Positions 1,825 to 54,511 of a DNA stretch of 64,000 nt are shown in pieces. Within the stretch, counting starts at the first letter, position 1. Each line of letters starts with the position of its first letter. The translations under genes and the position numbers were made by a program. The stretch comes from a virus: positions 1 to 64,000 of the IMG/VR virus record IMGVR_UViG_3300010151_007551; one strand, 5' to 3'. The notes beneath the pieces were generated by a model. It saw nothing but the letters and a program-made list of their open reading frames with translations. It did no database searches and had not been told where the DNA came from.

Positions 1825-2373
1825 TTATTCAAAGTCTACTTCTAATTTAAAATCAAGATATTGAAATTTAACTTCAAAAGTATTAAATTCTGGAGTAACT
1901 GAACTATATGATAATTTTATTCCAGTTTGTGATTTTAGTATTGGTCTATTAAAAATCAAAGATGATACAGCATATCCTTCATTGTTTAATAATAATAGTC
2001 TAATTGGACCAAGGGTTTGGTTTCTATTATCAAAATCTAAAAAATTTAGTGAATTTTCCAAAAACATAAAATAGTTTAGATATGCATCAGTTAGTTTCAT
2101 AGTAAGAGATATTTCCCTAGTAAATAAATCTGCTATTGGTTTTGATGATTTATACTCTTGTTTCTTTCCCAATAACCTAGTTTGATCTGCTAATTGCATT
2201 GTCCATGATGGAAATTCAATTTGTTGAACGGTAGATGCCATAAAATCTTCAATTGTATCATATGGCAATATTAAGCTTTTATAATATGCTTTATATTTTT
2301 CTTTTACTTCATCAGCAAAAAAGTTTTCTGGTAAAAGTAAAACAAAACTATTATTTCTTACGTTTAAAATCAT
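1825..2373 (-). CDS. T4 gp3-like tail tube terminator / tube-fold protein
   Basis: 182 aa; the pattern N.F.L....TVQQIEFPS....F.V.FQY..F.LE resembles the gp3/gp19 tube fold; last gene of the gp14-gp15 block. Confidence 0.55.
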   Translation of the reverse strand: MILNVRNNSFVLLLPENFFADEVKEKYKAYYKSLILPYDTIEDFMASTVQQIEFPSWTMQLADQTRLLGKKQEYKSSKPIADLFTREISLTMKLTDAYLNYFMFLENSLNFLDFDNRNQTLGPIRLLLLNNEGYAVSSLIFNRPILKSQTGIKLSYSSVTPEFNTFEVKFQYLDFKLEVDFE

Positions 2374-48523: not shown

Positions 48524-49663
48524 ATGGTTTATTTAATAGATGGAAATGCATATATAAACGTAGCAGTAAGCGTTACTAAAAGTATTTTATCTAGAGATAA
48601 ATCTATAGGAAGAGATTATTATATAGATGATATTTTTTCAGAAAATAAGAAGATCTTAAGGGAACAATGTAGGATAACATTTAGAGATTTTTGCTTATCT
48701 TACTTAGTATCATTAATTGCACCCATCCACAAAGAAGTGGATGAGGTGCATATTGTTTTTGATTCTAAAAGTTGGAGAAAGAAATATATTTCTGATTTTT
48801 TTACTACTGAAAATGTGTTATTGGATAGACCTTCTGATATTAAAGAATTTGAATATAAAGCTAATCGACGAGGAGACTCCAATATCTATTTATTTTTTGA
48901 ATATTTTCAAGGCATTGTTCTAGACCATTTAAAAAATGAATGTGGAATTAATTTTCACAGGTGGTCCGGAATGGAGGGAGATGATATATTGGCGTATTTA
49001 TGTGATACTTTTACTAAAGATACTATAATATATTCAGTTGATAAAGATTTAATACAGCTTGTTAATAATTCAGGATTAACATATACAATTATGGTATCAC
49101 CTAAGCAGATGTCTAAGCATAAAAAATTATATGTTTCAGATTATTCAAGTGAATTAAATGAATCAGATTTTTTTAACATAGATAACGTTACAGTTGGAAA
49201 TCTAAATAATGTTTCTTCCAAGTTAATAGAAAAGGGATATGTTAAGTATCCAATAAATTCTACTCGTTCTGTGCTAGAAAAAATAATAGGTGGAGATAAG
49301 TCAGATAAAATACCAAGGTTATATAAAATGACTAAGTCTAAAGTTAATAAAGTTTGCGAATTAATCATTGAAAAATATGGTAACGATATTTTACATAAAC
49401 TAGATGAATTAAATGCAGAGTTTATAGATTATGCTATTTGTAAAATATCTAAGTGTAATAAATTAGAAGAGAAAAAAGATATTGATACGCTTAGAAAGCA
49501 TTTTATATTTAATACTAAAATAATTAGACTATCTCATACCTTATTGCCATTAGAGTTAAAAAATGAAATTGAAACTCGGCTAAACCTATTACAGAAAACA
49601 AAGTATAATAACTTTAAATATTCTAAGCTATTAGAACTCAAAAATAAATCAGTACTACTATGA
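48524..49663 (+). CDS. T4 RNase H-like 5'-3' (flap) exonuclease
   Basis: Motifs LIDGN, VFDSKSWRK, YKANR, EGDDIL, SVDKDLIQL and GDKSD.IP. Confidence 0.9.
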   Translation: MVYLIDGNAYINVAVSVTKSILSRDKSIGRDYYIDDIFSENKKILREQCRITFRDFCLSYLVSLIAPIHKEVDEVHIVFDSKSWRKKYISDFFTTENVLLDRPSDIKEFEYKANRRGDSNIYLFFEYFQGIVLDHLKNECGINFHRWSGMEGDDILAYLCDTFTKDTIIYSVDKDLIQLVNNSGLTYTIMVSPKQMSKHKKLYVSDYSSELNESDFFNIDNVTVGNLNNVSSKLIEKGYVKYPINSTRSVLEKIIGGDKSDKIPRLYKMTKSKVNKVCELIIEKYGNDILHKLDELNAEFIDYAICKISKCNKLEEKKDIDTLRKHFIFNTKIIRLSHTLLPLELKNEIETRLNLLQKTKYNNFKYSKLLELKNKSVLL

Positions 49664-49959
49664 AACCTTTATATGAAAGAATTTTAATTAAACCTGTTCA
49701 AAAAGAAACATCTACTAAATCGGGTATTTTATTACCAACTAAAGCGGTTAAGCGTCCAAATATTGGAACCGTAATAGCATGTGGAGAAGGAACACAACAT
49801 AATCCTATGAAAGTTAAGGAAGGAGATGTAGTATTATGTAATAGATATGCAGGCGTAGATATAGTTTATAAAAATGAACCTCATTACGTTATATTATCTA
49901 ATGAAGTAATAGCCGTCTTGGAAAACATAGATGAGGTAAAACTCGACGAATATGAATAA
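49660..49959 (+). CDS. groES: Co-chaperonin GroES
   Basis: MKPLYERILIKP, TKSGILLP, G.VIA.GEG and VKEGDVV. Confidence 0.95.
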   Translation: MKPLYERILIKPVQKETSTKSGILLPTKAVKRPNIGTVIACGEGTQHNPMKVKEGDVVLCNRYAGVDIVYKNEPHYVILSNEVIAVLENIDEVKLDEYE

Positions 49960-50971
49960 TGACTTAAAGTTCGACTTTAATGATATTTTAATATGTCCAT
50001 CGGTTATAACTAATATAGAATCAAGATCTCACATTAATGTATTTTATCCTGATGGAAACCTTCCACTTATAACTGCTCCAATGGATACCGTTATATTAGA
50101 GAAAAATGAACATGTATTTATTGAAAATAATATAATACCTTGTTTACCCAGGGGAGAAAAAGCTGGGCCTCGCTCTATAGAGTCATTTTCACTAAATGAA
50201 ATGCTTAATAAATTTAAATCAAAGGAATTAAAAAAGCACAGGGGATATCTAATAGACACAGCTAATGGTCATATAAAAAAACTAAAAGATGTCACTAGGA
50301 TGATTAAGAATGAACTAGGTGATGATATATGGTTAATGATAGGAAATATAGCTAATCCAAAATCATACGCTGAATTATCTGAAGCCGGTGCAGATGCAAT
50401 TAGAATAGGAATAGGCAACGGCGGAGGTTGTCTAACTACACAGCAGACTGGTGTAGGATATCCAATGGCTTCCTTAATAAAAGAATGTTATATTGAATCA
50501 TTATCTTTAAATAATCCCGCTAAAATAGTAGCAGACGGTGGAATGAAAGATTATTCAGATGTTATTAAAGCGCTCGCATTAGGAGCAGATTTCGTTATGA
50601 TGGGTTCAATATTTAATAAAGCAATAGAAAGTTCTGGAAAAAATGTACATTATAGTAATGCTGGTGAAACAGAACTTAGTTTAGAAGAAGCATTAGATTT
50701 GTTTAATTCTGGGAGACCTGTTTTCAAATCATTTAGAGGAATGTCTACCAAAGAGGTTCAAAGGAAATGGGGAAGGATTAATCTTAAAACATCTGAAGGA
50801 ATAGTGGATACCAGAGAAGCCCAATACACTTTAAGCAGCTGGGTTGAAAACTTTAAGCATTATCTAAGATCAGCCATGAGCTATACTAATTCTAGTGATT
50901 TAAATGAATTCATTGGGGAGACACACACTATAATGATCACTAAAAATTCATTAGATAGATTTAAAAAATAA
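49952..50971 (+). CDS. GMP reductase / IMP dehydrogenase family enzyme (no CBS domains)
   Basis: Motifs APMDTV, DTANGH, GIGNGGGCLT, ADGG, ALGADFVMMG and FRGMS; GuaC versus GuaB cannot be settled by eye. Confidence 0.88.
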   Translation: MNNDLKFDFNDILICPSVITNIESRSHINVFYPDGNLPLITAPMDTVILEKNEHVFIENNIIPCLPRGEKAGPRSIESFSLNEMLNKFKSKELKKHRGYLIDTANGHIKKLKDVTRMIKNELGDDIWLMIGNIANPKSYAELSEAGADAIRIGIGNGGGCLTTQQTGVGYPMASLIKECYIESLSLNNPAKIVADGGMKDYSDVIKALALGADFVMMGSIFNKAIESSGKNVHYSNAGETELSLEEALDLFNSGRPVFKSFRGMSTKEVQRKWGRINLKTSEGIVDTREAQYTLSSWVENFKHYLRSAMSYTNSSDLNEFIGETHTIMITKNSLDRFKK

Positions 50972-50982
50972 TTTTTTTATTT

Positions 50983-51010
50983 AAACCTTTTTATAAAGTT
51001 TAGTATAATA
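50983..51010 (+). promoter_or_regulatory. Phage early/middle-type promoter AAAC-N16-GTA[T/G]AATA (representative copy)
   Basis: The same motif and spacing occur at about 29287, 31455, 38166, 43496, 47024, 50983, 54579 and 58409, with variants at about 1289, 6967 and 43923. Confidence 0.8.
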
Positions 51011-51054
51011 TATAAATCAATAACAAAATAGTTATTAACGTTCTTTAAAATAAT

Positions 51055-51477
51055 GTGAAAGGCATCGGAAATCGACGGATTGAAGATGTTGATATGTGCC
51101 AGAACAATGAGTCCAGTGGAGCTCATATTGGATGGAATTAGATCGTCGGATCGCAGAAGCCCGTGATAGGGTGTTCCTAATCAAATGATTAGGCTGAACT
51201 ACTTTAACAAGTGGAATTTCAGTTCTTAGTTTAGATTTATAGAAAATGTAGATCTGCACAACGCTTGTGGGTAAATAAATAAATCCCGCTTTATGACTGA
51301 ATAAGCTTTTTCGCGAGCTAAGGTGGTCTTGAATTCTATAGTGGATTTATCAATGATTATGGTGAGTACAAACCATTTTTAAGATAAGCAACGTCGGTTA
51401 TTTCAAGATGCAGTGTTTAAAATCGCAGCGGAGACTAAGTTGGAGGTATTCTATAATCCTTCCATATTTTCTTTCAC
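51055..51477 (+). ncRNA. Unclassified large structured non-coding RNA (~420 nt)
   Basis: Dedicated promoter (50983-51010), BoxA-like CGTTCTTTAAAA (51039-50), closing stem GTGAAAG/CTTTCAC, many internal hairpins and long-range helices, GC above the flanks, no credible ORF, downstream terminator. Confidence 0.75.
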
Positions 51478-51508
51478 TTTTTATTTTTATAATACATACA
51501 CTAATTAC

Positions 51509-51542
51509 AAAAAAAAGGGAAGCTTTATAGTTTCCCTTTTTT
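51509..51542. terminator. Bidirectional rho-independent terminator
   Basis: A-run-GGGAAGCT...AGTTTCCC-T-run between the convergent ncRNA and sheath gene. Confidence 0.85.
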
Positions 51543-51571
51543 ATTTTATATTAAAATTAAGTTTTCTGTTA

Positions 51572-54511
51572 TTAGAAACTTGGAGTAAATCCTGAAGATT
51601 CAGAACTTAATTCTCCACCAACTCTTGTTATTGTTAATCTGTTAATAAACTTATGAATTCCTCTTGGGAAATCAACCGCTATGTCAACTATAGCTGTATT
51701 AGCTTCAATAACTTCAGCTGTATTGTTTGTACTATCAATAGTTACTTCATAAGATTGTACACCTCTTGCGTTTTGAACTGCATCCATGTAATTTTCTAAA
51801 ATGGTTTTAACTCTTAACCTTGTGATTTCATCATTGAAATCAAATAAGAAGTTTACTAATATTTGTTCAATATCTCTTTCAATAGTTGAAAGATTATCTC
51901 TAACATGAGCATTATTTAATGCAGAAGTTACTCTCTGATATGCTGTATTGTTTGTGAAAACAGTTATTCCAAAGCCTCTTCGTTTAACTATTAAGTTATG
52001 TCCAACTGGTTCTAAATAATCTCTATCTTCTTTTGTTAAATCATATTCCAATCCAACAATTTCAGGATCGCTTAAAATAGCTCTTTTTCCAGCTGTTATT
52101 AAGAAAGGAGTTCCATTTTTAAATTTTCTAACAAATGCATTTGAAACATAACCAGCTGGTGGAACTGCTTTATTTTTACCACCTTCTCTAATTAAAACAT
52201 ATGGCATCGCAAAATATGCATATGATGCCAATGGTACTCCATTATAGTCTCCACTTGGAAATTTAAATAAGAAACTAGGATTTAAACTAACGTCTCCTCC
52301 TTCTGAAATATATTGTGTAGATACGAGTTTATTAACAGTATCAATAAAACTAGGATCTACTGATTTTTCAAATTGCTCAAATGAAGGGTCATTAATAATT
52401 GCCATTACTTTTCCATTCATTGCTGCTAATTTTACTAAATAATATTTAGACGATGAAGAAATGCATCCTGCATATGAATCAACGATATATCTATAATCAA
52501 TTGTTTCTCTATCTGAAAGAGTTTGAGGAATCTTAGTATAGTCATATAAATATGATAAAATATCCTCTTGTCTTCCACATGTATTATTTGGCAACAATTC
52601 TGATCTAAGTTTAAATCCTCTTAGGAATTGTCCTTTAAGTGCTTCAACATAATTGTATACTCCTTTATAAACAGATATTTCATTTCCACTAACCTCTAGA
52701 CCATCTACTGCTTCTGCAGAAGGTGCCATCGTAGTTACAGTATATTCTAGTCTATATGGGCTTAATTCTTCACTTGACGTTATCGAAATAATTTTCAATA
52801 ATCTAGTTCTAGAATCTCCATCTAATCTCGCTTTAATATAATGATTAACTTTTATGAATTCATCTATTTCAGCTTTTTCTGCAACATTAGCGGTATTAAT
52901 ACCTAATACTAATTTATTAGGTTGAGTTATTGTGAAATCTGTAAAATAATTAGTATCAGCTAAATCAAATACTTTTTTGAAATTACTACCGTTTTGTAAT
53001 TCATATTTAATATAGTCATCTCCATCAATGTAATAGTTTACACTTATTTGATTTAATAAACTATTATCTTGATATGTGTATATTTTAATGTATGAATATT
53101 CTTTTCCATCATCAAGTATGGCTTTAAATCCATCTTCTATTTTAGAATAGTATGTATTTACTCCATCCACTGATGTATCATTAGTTTTTAAGAAACCTCC
53201 AACATATGCTTCATATACTTTACTTCCTTCCATAGCTATCATGTATTCGACAGCAGCTGTTACTCTAACAAAGTCATCTGCTTCAACTAGTGTGAAATCT
53301 CCTGCTGCTTTAGCGATATCTATTTTATTAACTAGATTATCATCGCCTGGTCTACTATAGCTTACTACGCTAATTAGTGGAGTAGGGTCTGCGTCTGATC
53401 CATCTGGGTTTTTTCCACCTGTATCTATGGTATATACGTCATCTGTATTTAATGCATCATATCCATAGCCTACTATGTCAACTCTGTGTGTTGACATTTC
53501 AATATCATTAAATGTATCGTCTTCTAAGTCTATTAAATCTAGTTTATCTCTATCTAATGCACAAAGAATACCTGTGCTAGCAAATAATCTATTTACTAAC
53601 GTATCAATTGATGAATTTGTTCCAGATTGATCTTTAAAATCAGGTATTAGTGATCCAGTTACTCTTGCAATTGCTTTTACCTCTGGTAAAGCAATGAAGT
53701 TTGATATTTCAGAATCCATTAGTCCTGCTTCATCAAAAAATTGACCAAACGTTGGATCTTTTGCTAATTTTAAATTATTTGACCAGTCTCCCTCTACCAT
53801 AATCACCTCTACAAAGTAATCAGATATAAAATCATCTGGTGATACGAAATTTGGAAAATCTATGTCTTCTCCAAAGCTAGCATACCATTCTCTAGCTGTT
53901 ACGTCAAATCCTGATATACCTGCTCTCTTAACCCAAAGTGTCATATTGCTACTTCCCGTGTTAACAAAGCTTAATATTTTATTGGATGCAATTGATGCGT
54001 TACCAAATGCTCCAGGGTTTAGGATAAAATCATCTCCTAACGCTAAATTTTTAGATCTATTTAGACTGTCTTCATCTGCATACCATAGTTTATTTCTATT
54101 AAAGAACTCTATCATTGGATATTGATATGGTGCGCTGTTTGAATTATTAGATGAGCTTTCACAGTTAAATGTTGTAAACGATGCTTGATCTTTATTCGCA
54201 ACTGTGTCTGTGTCATTATCTAACGGCCAAACATTCAGTGCAAAAACGGGACCTTCTCTTAATGCAACTTCGATAGTTCTATGAAAATAACTTCCTTGTT
54301 TTTCTAATTGCGAATCTCTGTCTCCGTAAACTGCTTTTAATGTTCTTAAGTCATTTATTAAAACCACAGTATTGAATGGACCTTGTCTACTTGATCCAAT
54401 TATTAATCTTCCGGTGGTTAAAGGCAAGGCGGTGCCTTGACTTTGGTCTATCTCAACAGTATATACCCCGCTGGATTTAAAATTGTTTAAGTTTAATACT
54501 TTTTCGGCCAT
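51572..54511 (-). CDS. Contractile tail sheath protein (T4 gp18-like, 979 aa)
   Basis: N-terminal SGVYTVEID and GPFN motifs; C-terminal VPPAGYVS, DRDYL, SALN..HVR, FLFDFND..TR and D.TNNT.EVI. Confidence 0.92.
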   Translation of the reverse strand: MAEKVLNLNNFKSSGVYTVEIDQSQGTALPLTTGRLIIGSSRQGPFNTVVLINDLRTLKAVYGDRDSQLEKQGSYFHRTIEVALREGPVFALNVWPLDNDTDTVANKDQASFTTFNCESSSNNSNSAPYQYPMIEFFNRNKLWYADEDSLNRSKNLALGDDFILNPGAFGNASIASNKILSFVNTGSSNMTLWVKRAGISGFDVTAREWYASFGEDIDFPNFVSPDDFISDYFVEVIMVEGDWSNNLKLAKDPTFGQFFDEAGLMDSEISNFIALPEVKAIARVTGSLIPDFKDQSGTNSSIDTLVNRLFASTGILCALDRDKLDLIDLEDDTFNDIEMSTHRVDIVGYGYDALNTDDVYTIDTGGKNPDGSDADPTPLISVVSYSRPGDDNLVNKIDIAKAAGDFTLVEADDFVRVTAAVEYMIAMEGSKVYEAYVGGFLKTNDTSVDGVNTYYSKIEDGFKAILDDGKEYSYIKIYTYQDNSLLNQISVNYYIDGDDYIKYELQNGSNFKKVFDLADTNYFTDFTITQPNKLVLGINTANVAEKAEIDEFIKVNHYIKARLDGDSRTRLLKIISITSSEELSPYRLEYTVTTMAPSAEAVDGLEVSGNEISVYKGVYNYVEALKGQFLRGFKLRSELLPNNTCGRQEDILSYLYDYTKIPQTLSDRETIDYRYIVDSYAGCISSSSKYYLVKLAAMNGKVMAIINDPSFEQFEKSVDPSFIDTVNKLVSTQYISEGGDVSLNPSFLFKFPSGDYNGVPLASYAYFAMPYVLIREGGKNKAVPPAGYVSNAFVRKFKNGTPFLITAGKRAILSDPEIVGLEYDLTKEDRDYLEPVGHNLIVKRRGFGITVFTNNTAYQRVTSALNNAHVRDNLSTIERDIEQILVNFLFDFNDEITRLRVKTILENYMDAVQNARGVQSYEVTIDSTNNTAEVIEANTAIVDIAVDFPRGIHKFINRLTITRVGGELSSESSGFTPSF

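What the first reader, a model, noticed from the sequence alone, without database searches (positions are those of the whole stretch)
50983..51542. Stand-alone ~420-nt highly structured phage RNA of no recognisable class
Seen in sequence: a 600-bp gap between the guaC-like gene and the sheath gene holds a complete transcription unit with no credible ORF. It has a consensus phage promoter (50983-51010), a BoxA-like CGTTCTTTAAAA (51039-50) and a GC-enriched body closed by GTGAAAG(51055-61)/CTTTCAC(51471-77), followed by a terminator (51509-42). Almost all of the body pairs: GGCAT/GTGCC enclosing ATCGAC/GTTGAT (51061-100); CAATGAG/CTCATATTG (51105-30); GATC/GATC (51141-52); GCCC/GGGT (51159-72); CCTAATCA/TGATTAGG (51176-93); GCTGAA/TTCAGT enclosing CTACTT/AAGTGG (51193-223); AGATTTAT/GTAGATCT (51233-55); GTGGG/CCCGC (51267-89); ATGGT/ACCAT (51359-76). 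There are also long-range helices CTTAGTTT(51225-32)/AGACTAAG(51432-39) and TCTTGAA(51327-33)/TTCAAGA(51402-08), and G-U pairs are frequent. Established: BoxA elements precede stable-RNA genes, and phages carry large structured RNAs such as GOLLD and ROOL. I see no tmRNA, RNase P, SRP, 6S or group I/II intron hallmarks. Inference: an abundant, possibly new class of large phage ncRNA (scaffold, ribozyme or decoy), perhaps working with the phage S1-like protein or CCA enzyme.
Basis: partly seen in the sequence, partly recalled or inferred. Interest (0 to 1): 0.88.

Follow-up and report, generated by a model that had tools for sequence, protein, structure and literature searches.

The report
Strand-swapped double manA-like phage RNA
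The flagged gap in this uncultured large marine phage is a real gene for a folded RNA of about 420 bases, found in ocean RNA data, and it is built from two interlocked copies of the known manA RNA module rather than being a wholly new RNA class.

Summary
Window 50972-51571 has no conserved ORF. It carries a conserved promoter, a body of about 423 nt (51055-51477) and a terminator (51511-51542).

Three distinct homologues give 118 predicted pairs. 41 of them have compensatory changes, against 11.6 +/- 2.8 in column-shuffled alignments. Contigs from 4 of 4 marine RNA libraries (4 studies) lie inside 51066-51474.

It is not a class of its own. Both halves match Rfam manA (RF01745) at 34.9 and 31.4 bits, below the 55.2 cut-off. 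The two manA-like units are interlocked:
- one helix (51091-96/51463-68) closes both units;
- the "Hb" stem forms between unit 1 and unit 2 (51225-32/51432-39);
- the unit-1 Hb loop is complementary to the unit-2 Hc loop.

Five other viral-contig lineages share this double architecture.

A 2026 preprint reports that single manA RNAs form RNA-only cages in vitro through loop-loop contacts. I therefore read this RNA as a free-standing structural RNA and a pre-linked manA dimer, not a gene switch. Its function is untested.

Earlier reports of this scan described double manA-like RNAs on other DNA. I found no paper that describes them.

Verdict: new variant of a known kind.

The parts
50980..51009 (+). 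Promoter-like site, TTTAAA - 18 nt - TATAAT
   Evidence: Best site of the scan, 10 of 12 matches. The block TTAAAC...TTAGTATAAT is conserved in window, L001 and G037.
51038..51054 (+).
   Evidence: AACGTTCTTT is invariant in 3 of 3 distinct homologues. Its function is untested. None of the 4 RNA-library contigs reaches it, which proves nothing.
51055..51062 (+). P0, 5' strand of the outermost closing helix (pairs with 51470-51477)
   Evidence: GUGAAAGG/UCUUUCAC. It is invariant within the subfamily (helix 1). Outer helices at the same place but of other sequence occur in G044, G048, G061 and G062.
51061..51090 (+). H0 hairpin, in the position of the first hairpin of the manA model
   Evidence: Helices 2 and 3: 3 pairs change on both sides.
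51091..51096 (+). P1, 5' strand (GAUAUG); pairs with 51463-51468 and encloses both manA-like units
   Evidence: The script found complementary strands at the same two places in 7 of 8 family members. G061 was found by eye. The pair types are GAUAUG/CAUAUY, GGGAU/AUCCC and GGGGU/ACCCC.
51097..51289 (+). manA-like unit 1: junction UGCCAGAACAA, hairpin Ha1, multi-stem junction M1 (closed by 51133-39/51215-21), Hb1, Hc1
   Evidence: cmscan manA 34.9 bits at 51083-51299. Helices 5-14.
51225..51232 (+). PLR, 5' strand: lower 'Hb' stem strand of unit 1; pairs with 51432-51439 of unit 2
   Evidence: CUUAGUUU/AGACUAAG. A helix of 7-8 bp of a different sequence lies at the same two places in 7 of 8 members. 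G037 has GCAUAAU/AUUAAGU with one A-A mismatch.
51233..51255 (+). Hb1 hairpin; 51237-51244 (UUAUAGAA) is complementary to the Hc2 loop (contact K1)
   Evidence: The register is anchored on the G-C pair. Both loop differences between window and L001 are compensated (read).
51267..51289 (+). Hc1 hairpin (GUGGG / 13-nt loop / CCCGC)
   Evidence: Helix 14: 2 pairs change on both sides. It matches the last hairpin of the manA model.
51294..51462 (+). manA-like unit 2: junction UGACUGAAUAA...UAAGGUG, Ha2, four-way junction M2 (closed by 51327-33/51402-08), Hb2 (51410-29), Hc2 (51442-62)
   Evidence: cmscan manA 31.4 bits at 51267-51472. Helices 15-22. The M2 long hairpin has 8 pairs that change on both sides.
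51432..51439 (+). PLR, 3' strand
   Evidence: (helix 11).
51447..51457 (+). Hc2 loop, 11 nt; 51449-51456 (UUCUAUAA) is the K1 partner of Hb1
51463..51468 (+). P1, 3' strand (CAUAUU)
51470..51477 (+). P0, 3' strand
51511..51542 (.). Intrinsic terminator with an A-run before and a T-run after, so it is usable from both strands
   Evidence: L001 and G037 have hairpin-plus-T-run sites of different sequence at the same place (read). The scan tool did not call the L001 site.

Best explanation
This is a free-standing non-coding RNA gene of an uncultured large marine phage. It is transcribed on the + strand from its own promoter and ends at the terminator 51511-42. The mature body is about 51055-51477.

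The RNA is a covalent, interlocked double of the manA-type module. Each half has the manA order of elements: a junction motif, hairpin Ha, a multi-stem junction, Hb and Hc. The two halves do not close separately:
- One P1 helix (51091-96/51463-68) closes both halves.
- The lower Hb stem forms between the 5' strand of unit 1 and the 3' strand of unit 2 (51225-32/51432-39).
- The Hb loop of unit 1 pairs with the Hc loop of unit 2 (51237-44/51449-56).

Inference: in single manA RNAs the complementary Hb and Hc loops are probably the L8-L9' kissing contact. By a 2026 preprint that contact joins neighbouring subunits into RNA-only 8-, 10- and 60-mers in vitro. The double RNA would then be a pre-formed dimer of that building block.

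I commit to this reading: it works as a stable, trans-acting structural RNA that probably self-associates or scaffolds through its remaining conserved loops. It is not a cis-acting switch.

Shown: gene structure, fold, kinship to manA, presence in RNA libraries.
Inferred: K1 acting in cis, self-assembly, biological role.
For: No gene to regulate:
- The next gene is convergent.
- No ORF of 60 aa or more is conserved at this place in L001 or G037.
- The 3 ORFs in the gap have no Pfam match at E<=1.

Transcription signals:
- Promoter and terminator are found.
- The promoter is conserved in 3 of 3 homologues. The terminator is replaced by other hairpin-plus-T-run sequences.

Fold:
- 118 pairs, 41 compensatory, 97.2% paired.
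- The + strand is favoured: -90.5 against -60.7 kcal/mol.

RNA libraries:
- In 4 of 4 runs laid (4 studies), contigs lie at 51127-51474, 51066-51445, 51133-51462 and 51074-51444.
- The three variants that fall in stems keep pairing. 51240 and 51268 change U-G to C-G. 51372 changes U-A to U-G.

Kinship to manA:
- Two matches in the window, E 8.1e-9 and 9.0e-8.
- 47.3 and 25.9 bits in the L001 record.
- 34.5 bits in G037.

Same double architecture elsewhere:
- G044, G048, G061 and G062 each have two manA matches. G052/G058 have one match of 70.8 bits plus a whole-length nhmmer match to this family, E 6.9e-9.
- P0, P1 and PLR covary across these records.

Contact K1:
- Complementary runs of 5-8 bp at the same two loops in 8 of 8 members.
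- Fisher-combined p is 0.008 over 6 lineages.
- Loop positions 3, 6 and 7 show 2-3 Watson-Crick pair types.
- The manA consensus and a 173-bit manA also have complementary Hb and Hc loops.

Literature:
- In vitro cages of manA held by kissing loops: bioRxiv 10.64898/2026.07.01.735769, sections 7, 8 and 13 read.
Against: - Neither half reaches Rfam's manA cut-off of 55.2 bits.
- Only 3 distinct sequences of the window's own subfamily exist. L001 and G037 are about 90% alike, and the structure was derived from the same sequences that are counted.
- The runs laid are contigs. They show neither strand, nor ends, nor level, and DNA can be present in RNA libraries.
- K1 overlaps the predicted Hb1 stem in the window and in L001.
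- The X24 variant changes two K1 bases (51240, 51241) while improving the Hb1 stem. Its contig stops before the partner loop.
- Single-lineage p values for K1 are only 0.02-0.49.
- The reciprocal loop contact (Hb2 with Hc1) is not supported.
- The reciprocal swapped helix R is clear only in the sister lineages, not in the window.
- My mapping of Hb and Hc loops to the preprint's L8 and L9 is a guess from helix order, because figures are not held.
- Cage formation is reported in vitro for single-unit manA RNAs only. Nothing is known in cells.
Confidence: 0.7

Rival explanations
1. Same RNA, different mode of action. It is a monomeric, stable decoy or scaffold that binds a phage or host protein or a small molecule in trans. 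The manA-like fold would serve binding rather than RNA-RNA assembly.
For: - It is a stand-alone gene and is present in RNA libraries.
- Unpaired blocks are invariant in 3 of 3 homologues while the neighbouring stems covary. Examples are the loop GAGUACAA and the junctions UGCC.GAA.AA and UGACUGAAUAA.
- The interlocking helices would already satisfy the inter-subunit contact inside one molecule, which leaves less need for multimers.
Against: - No partner is known.
- No protein gene is consistently adjacent. The neighbours are sheath in the window, an RNase T-like gene in L001, a minus-strand ORF in G037 and tRNA-Gly in G052.
- Relatives of the module self-assemble in vitro.
Confidence: 0.2
2. 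A tandem-aptamer riboswitch, as manA was first proposed to be. It would control the terminator at 51511-42 and so read-through into downstream DNA.
For: - manA was classed as a probable cis-regulatory riboswitch candidate (PMC2864571, passages read).
- A terminator follows the RNA by about 33 nt.
- In L001 a + strand RNase T-like gene follows.
Against: - In the window and in G037 the next gene is on the opposite strand.
- The terminator hairpins of the 3 homologues differ in sequence. By eye I see no conserved alternative pairing with the P0 or P1 strands.
- In the sister lineages the downstream ORF has its own promoter-like site after the terminator (by eye).
- The RNA body occurs as separate short contigs in RNA libraries.
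Confidence: 0.07
3. An unrelated new RNA class whose likeness to manA is chance or convergence.
For: - Both matches are below Rfam's gathering score.
- At E<=10 the same family also gave sub-threshold matches in 4 of 14 control genomes.
- Unit 1 has a degenerate junction motif and an extra hairpin.
Against: - E is 8e-9 and 9e-8 in the record. At E<=0.01 and E<=0.001 the controls gave 0 of 14.
- The whole model (positions 1-192) is matched, in the same order of elements, twice.
- Sister double RNAs grade into bona fide manA. Their second units score 66.1 and 70.8 bits, and one of them matches this family by nhmmer over nearly its whole length.
Confidence: 0.03

Closest known systems
manA RNA motif (Rfam RF01745; Weinberg et al. 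2010, PMC2864571; in vitro assemblies in Ren et al. 2026, bioRxiv 10.64898/2026.07.01.735769)
   Same: - The order of elements is the same in each half: a 5' hairpin, a closing helix, the junction CUGAAUAA...UAAGG around a hairpin, a multi-stem junction, an Hb arm, and an Hc hairpin with a 5-bp stem and an 11-nt loop that begins UA and ends AAU, followed at once by the 3' strand of the closing helix.
- The Hb and Hc loops are complementary.
- The setting is marine and phage-borne.
   Different: - Scores are below the family cut-off.
- Two units sit in one chain of about 423 nt. One closing helix serves both, and the Hb stem is formed across units.
- There is an extra outer helix P0, and unit 1 has a five-way junction.
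- It is a stand-alone gene with a convergent neighbour instead of a 5' UTR.
- The phage's sheath is nearest to those of huge phages and a Flavobacterium phage, not cyanophages.
Other double manA-like RNAs in IMG/VR contigs (G044, G048, G061, G062, G052/G058) and those reported earlier in this scan on other DNA
   Same: P0, H0, a single P1 around two units, the cross-unit PLR helix, the K1 loop complementarity, and an own promoter-like site and terminator.
   Different: - Sequence identity is low. Only G052/G058 are detectable by nhmmer, E 6.9e-9.
- Their second units pass or approach the manA cut-off.
- They have a clear reciprocal helix R (ACCUUGU/ACAAGGU and variants) that I cannot place in the window.
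- Several carry a further conserved element inside the terminator loop.
Large ornate RNAs that form RNA-only multimers (GOLLD, ROOL, OLE; PMC12286853, seen as search listing and abstract only)
   Same: Large, ornate, phage- or bacterium-borne structured RNAs without a known protein partner. Multimerisation is reported or suspected.
   Different: There is no sequence or structure match: no Rfam hit at curated thresholds, and none of these families among the 18 rows that one search listed at E<=10 over 50900-51650. The present RNA is smaller and is built from a duplicated known module.
Tandem glycine riboswitch (recalled; PMC13648278 seen only as a search listing)
   Same: Two homologous domains in one chain that contact each other.
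   Different: There the two aptamers close separately and sit in a 5' UTR with an expression platform. Here helices are exchanged between units and there is no downstream gene.

Membership tests
manA RNA motif (RF01745) | Covariance-model score at or above Rfam's gathering score (55.2 bits) | tested here: not met
   Window: 34.9 and 31.4 bits, and no hit at gathering. L001 record: 47.3 and 25.9 bits. G037: 34.5 bits.
manA RNA motif (RF01745) | Junction motif CUGAAUAA ... UAAGG flanking the Ha hairpin | tested here: met
   Unit 2 has ACUGAAUAA...CUAAGGUG, invariant in 8 of 8 double RNAs. Unit 1 is degenerate in the window (CCAGAACAA...AUUGG) but reads CCUGAAUAA...AAAGG in G037, with the pair A-U changed to U-A.
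manA RNA motif (RF01745) | Four-way junction with three hairpins after Ha | tested here: met
   Unit 2 is closed by 51327-33/51402-08 and has three hairpins. Unit 1 is closed by 51133-39/51215-21 but has four hairpins, so it deviates.
manA RNA motif (RF01745) | Hc hairpin with an 11-nt loop, directly followed by the 3' strand of the closing helix P1 | tested here: met
   Hc2 is GGAGG / 11-nt loop / CCUUC followed by CAUAUU. Hc1 has a 13-nt loop and is followed by a 5-nt linker instead of a paired strand.
manA RNA motif (RF01745) | Each RNA closed by its own P1 and carrying its own Hb stem | tested here: not met
   One P1 encloses both units. The lower Hb stem pairs unit 1 with unit 2. The own-unit pairings proposed by cmscan carry non-standard pairs.
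manA RNA motif (RF01745) | Complementary Hb and Hc loops (the 'pseudoknot?' of the 2010 figure legend; probably L8-L9' of the preprint, which is my mapping) | tested here: met
   UUAUAGAA/UUCUAUAA in the window. Runs of 5-8 bp occur in 8 of 8 members, combined p 0.008. The consensus and a 173-bit member show the same. Whether the contact is in cis or in trans is not testable here.
manA RNA motif (RF01745) | Location in a potential 5' UTR (cis-regulatory) | tested here: not met
   A terminator and a convergent sheath gene follow the RNA.
manA RNA motif (RF01745) | Self-assembly into closed RNA-only oligomers | not testable with these tools
   Reported in vitro for five single-unit manA RNAs.
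GOLLD, ROOL, tmRNA, RNase P, SRP, 6S, group I/II introns (Rfam) | Match to the family covariance model | tested here: not met
   0 matches at gathering in the whole window. None of these families is among the 18 matches at E<=10 in 50900-51650. ARAGORN finds no tRNA or tmRNA in the window.
BoxA antitermination element | Conserved boxA sequence that recruits Nus factors ahead of a stable-RNA gene | not testable with these tools
   AACGTTCTTT is invariant in 3 of 3 homologues. The sister lineages have a different U-rich leader. The likeness to boxA rests on my recall of the consensus and was not scored.

The most novel reading that the evidence does not exclude
The double manA RNA is a natural covalent dimer of a cage-forming RNA subunit. 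In infected cells it would assemble through its free conserved loops into defined RNA-only particles, made of pairs of units where single manA RNAs use pentamers. These particles would act as a phage-made RNA compartment or scaffold. This would be the first evidence that the in vitro manA assemblies are used in nature.
Probability: 0.15. Interest if true: 0.9.

Novelty: new variant of a known kind. Interest (0 to 1): 0.62.

Why it matters
manA has been an orphan "riboswitch candidate" since 2010. In 2026 it was reported to build RNA-only cages in vitro, with no biological context.

This finding adds three things:
- A natural version in which two manA modules are fused and interlocked.
- The contact that probably joins subunits in the cages is encoded between the two halves.
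- The RNA is a free-standing gene found in ocean RNA libraries.

Together these argue that the RNA-RNA contacts are under selection and that manA-type RNAs are products in their own right, not mRNA leaders. The finding gives a defined construct (51055-51477) and specific loop mutants (51237-44 and 51449-56) for testing assembly. It also extends the module from cyanophages to large phages whose sheath is nearest to those of huge phages and a Flavobacterium phage.

Tried and rejected
Searches that found no further homologues:
- blastn 'distant' against 50,697 deposited phage genomes found nothing. Queries were the window gap, the L118 manA-like RNA, and the G044 and G052 double RNAs.
- nhmmer with the 600-nt gap found a homologue in only 2 of 35 guaC-related loci, L001 and L002, which are identical.
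- The 16-mer scan gave 80 stretches, probably the cap. Only 2 are real, and they are the same two contigs.
- A second-unit pattern gave 3 stretches: the same two contigs plus L118, which looks like a single manA-type RNA.
- A two-unit pattern gave 3 stretches in viral contigs. The one new stretch, L119, lies in coding DNA.
- The same two-unit pattern gave 29 stretches in metagenome contigs. nhmmer matched only L140, which is the L001 contig. I read 10 of the other 28, and all look like chance.
- The manA model matched 1 of 35 records of guaC-related loci at E<=0.01. L118's record was not matched.

Structure ideas dropped or left open:
- RNAalifold on the MAFFT alignment of all 8 double RNAs recovered only 40 pairs, because the alignment is poor. 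I therefore located helices per sequence by script.
- In one search the script mis-placed Hc2 of G061. I read that case by eye.
- The reciprocal loop contact Hb2-Hc1 is not better than shuffles. p is 0.09-0.98 over the 16 tests of 8 sequences.
- Helix R is clear in G044, G048, G061 and G062 and, by eye, in G052. In L001 and G037 there are candidates (AUCGUU/AACGAU and AUUGUU/AACAAU, and a competing 10-bp option). In the window only 3 of 5 aligned positions pair. It is left open.
- A first search for tertiary pairs among unpaired columns gave only weak candidates.

Coding reading:
- The three ORFs in the gap have no Pfam hit at E<=1 and are not conserved.

Read and run evidence that does not count as support:
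- In one search the flanking genes were not covered by the RNA-library contigs, except one 151-nt piece in the sheath gene (X6).
- Contig depths (2.8 to 74.2) cannot rank expression.
- The 5' loose ends at 51074 and 51133 are sequencing-adapter letters, not RNA ends.
- The 20 runs that I did not lay are no evidence of habitat or expression. 15 of them hold under a fifth of the words.

Tools and sources not available:
Additional files 1-3 of PMC2864571 and the supplementary figures of the 2026 preprint may describe tandem or modular manA forms and the helix numbering. I could not see them.
- Not in print as far as searched: plus a 'find' for 'tandem' in the preprint with 0 hits. No paper describes a double manA.
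Full report
**What is there.** Window 50972-51571 lies between an IMPDH/GMP-reductase-like ORF (49952-50971, +) and a convergent 979-aa tail-sheath gene (51572-54511, -).
- The window is bases 1-64000 of an 87.9-kb IMG/VR virus record that CheckV rates 32% complete.
- The sheath is nearest, at 30-36% identity, to sheaths of 460-735-kb uncultured phages, Lak phages and a Flavobacterium phage. So this is probably a large phage and not a cyanophage.
- The gap has the best promoter-like site of the region (TTTAAA-18-TATAAT, 50980-51009) and a terminator at 51511-51542.
- The three ORFs in the gap have no Pfam match and are not kept in homologues.
- The + strand folds better than shuffles (z -2.58). 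The - strand does not (z -1.06).

**Homologues and covariation.** Homologues are rare.
- Among 35 loci found through the IMPDH-like protein, only L001 and L002 (identical) hold the RNA.
- Pattern scans of viral and metagenome contigs added only the same contig.
- Through the sheath protein I found 3 further records. 2 of these 3 (G037 and G038, identical in the RNA) carry it.
- This gives three distinct sequences: window, L001 and G037. They share the promoter, the leader AACGTTCTTT and the closing helix. Their terminator hairpins differ in sequence.
- RNAalifold predicts 118 pairs. 41 of them change on both sides with the pair kept.
- 97.2% of cells are paired, against 38-43% when partners are slid. 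The 41 pairs compare with 3-7 when slid and 15.3 +/- 3.0 when shuffled (0 of 500 shuffles).
- RNAalifold on 100 column-shuffled alignments gives -34.2 +/- 4.4 kcal/mol and 11.6 +/- 2.8 such pairs (maximum 20), against -90.5 and 41 observed. The reverse complement gives -60.7.
- Caveat: the structure was derived from the same three sequences, and two of them are about 90% alike.

**RNA libraries.** 24 public runs of 13 studies hold part of window 50300-52300, and 11 of them are RNA libraries. I laid four RNA runs of four studies, and all four hold the RNA body.
- The contigs lie at 51127-51474, 51066-51445, 51133-51462 and 51074-51444.
- These are contigs. They show presence in RNA libraries but not strand, ends or level.
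- Their variants fit the fold. 51240 and 51268 turn U-G into C-G, and 51372 turns U-A into U-G.
- The other variants lie in loops or junctions: 51113, 51241, 51247 and 51298.

**What it is.** Rfam gives nothing at curated thresholds. With E-value reporting, the manA model (RF01745) matches twice, over its whole length each time.
- In the window: 51083-51299 (34.9 bits) and 51267-51472 (31.4 bits), with E 8.1e-9 and 9.0e-8 for the record.
- In the L001 record the halves score 47.3 and 25.9 bits.
- Each half has the manA order of elements. Unit 2 carries the hallmark junction ACUGAAUAA...UAAGGUG and an Hc hairpin with an 11-nt loop.

The comparative structure is not two separate manA folds.
- An extra outer helix P0 (51055-62/51470-77) and a 5' hairpin H0 come first.
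- One P1 helix (51091-96/51463-68) encloses both units.
- The strand that in manA opens the lower Hb stem of unit 1 (51225-32) pairs with the strand that closes the Hb stem of unit 2 (51432-39).

**A wider family.** A scan for two CUGAAUAA motifs at the right spacing gave 26 viral stretches. The manA model was run on 26 records: the records of 24 of those stretches plus G037 and G038, whose own two stretches (L179, L183) are the other two of the 26. It matched 10 of 26 at E<=0.001, and 5 of 26 above the cut-off.
- G044, G048, G061 and G062 each have two adjoining matches, of 24-66 bits.
- G052 and G058 have one match of 70.8 bits and match this family's nhmmer profile over nearly its whole length (E 6.9e-9).
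- All share the layout, and the helices covary.
  - P1 reads GAUAUG/CAUAUY, GGGAU/AUCCC or GGGGU/ACCCC. The script found it in 7 of 8, and G061 was read by eye.
  - The cross-unit helix reads CUUAGUUU/AGACUAAG, ACUUUCAG/CUGAAAGU, ACUUGAAG/CUUCAAGU, ACUUCUAG/CUAGAAGU or UCGAAUCA/UGAUUCGA.
- The sister lineages also have the reciprocal helix: the 3' Hb strand of unit 1 pairs with the 5' Hb strand of unit 2. That makes the exchange complete. In the window I cannot place it.
- These RNAs too have promoter-like sites and terminators of their own (by eye).

**A loop-loop contact.** The apex of Hb1 is complementary to the Hc2 loop in 8 of 8 members. The runs are 8 bp in the window (51237-44/51449-56) and 7, 7, 6, 7, 5, 5 and 5 bp in the others.
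- Per-lineage p values are 0.02-0.49. Fisher-combined over 6 lineages, p is 0.008.
- With the loops aligned, positions 3, 6 and 7 show two or three Watson-Crick pair types. Both loop differences between window and L001 are compensated (read).
- The manA consensus and a 173-bit manA RNA have the same Hb-loop to Hc-loop complementarity.
- The reverse contact (Hb2 with Hc1) is not supported.
- The contact competes with part of the predicted Hb1 stem. One natural variant changes two of its bases without the partner being visible.

**How it probably works.** The preprint of Ren et al. (bioRxiv 10.64898/2026.07.01.735769; outline, sections 7, 8 and 13 and a term search read) reports that five single manA RNAs form 8-, 10- or 60-subunit RNA-only particles in vitro. 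These are built from pentamers held by kissing loops L5-L7', L8-L9' or L3-L8' and a GNRA-receptor contact.
- By helix order I take Hb and Hc to be P8 and P9. This is a guess, because figures are not held.
- The double RNA then encodes the inter-subunit L8-L9' contact between its own two halves, together with the exchanged helices. That makes it a pre-formed dimer.
- With no gene to regulate downstream, I read it as a trans-acting structural RNA that probably self-associates or scaffolds.
- Rivals are a monomeric binding RNA, a tandem riboswitch acting on the terminator, and an unrelated class. They are weighed in their own sections.

**Novelty.** manA itself is known (PMC2864571, passages read; PMC9964418, passages). 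Searches found no paper on a double form.
- Supplements were closed.
- Earlier reports of this scan described double or enlarged manA-like phage RNAs on other DNA and pointed to the preprint. My note, written before that look-up, already records the two manA-like halves and the nested helices.
- The sequence look-up found no look-alike stretch outside this genome.

**Limits.**
- Few sequences are available in the window's own subfamily.
- Evidence from RNA libraries is contig-level only.
- Function is untested.

Noticed in passing
L167 (G044), L199 (G061), L187 (G062): about 30-110 nt downstream of the double RNA: The terminator hairpin after the sister-lineage RNAs has a GC-rich stem of differing sequence that encloses a conserved loop of about 45 nt (ACGATTTTTAGTTTCCACTATA...AAACTTAAAAA). 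It may be a further small RNA module. In G048 the stem encloses a different loop.
   Followed up: no
L175 3511-3583 (+): A tRNA-Gly (anticodon TCC) lies about 85 nt downstream of the G052 double manA-like RNA. The window and the six other loci scanned hold no tRNA.
   Followed up: partly
window 48524-50971; L001 2588-5620: A conserved gene string lies upstream of the RNA: a 5'-3' exonuclease-like gene, Cpn10 (GroES) and an IMPDH/GMP-reductase-like gene. L001 adds a ClpP-like gene and a 73-aa ORF. Chaperone and nucleotide-synthesis genes are among the neighbours listed for manA in 2010.
   Followed up: partly
window 51572-54511 (-): The tail sheath is unusually long at 979 aa. Its nearest relatives, at 30-36% identity, are in 460-735-kb uncultured phages, Lak phages and Flavobacterium phage MaF61.
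   Followed up: partly
L118 about 2080-2310 (+): A single manA-type RNA with the loop TATAGTGG of unit 2 sits between a 73-aa ORF and a 254-aa ORF. The manA model did not report it at E<=0.01.
   Followed up: partly
L167, L171, L187: about 60-120 nt upstream of the RNAs: A recurrent upstream motif (ACATTTTGAGAATTTATATACATATATATTA and close variants) appears before the RNA, and a similar one before the next ORF. It looks like a phage-specific promoter (by eye).
   Followed up: no
window 51363-51371 (loop GAGUACAA): An 8-nt hairpin loop is invariant in 3 of 3 homologues while its stem has 8 compensatory pairs. It contains the self-complementary GUAC, a possible contact between molecules.
   Followed up: no
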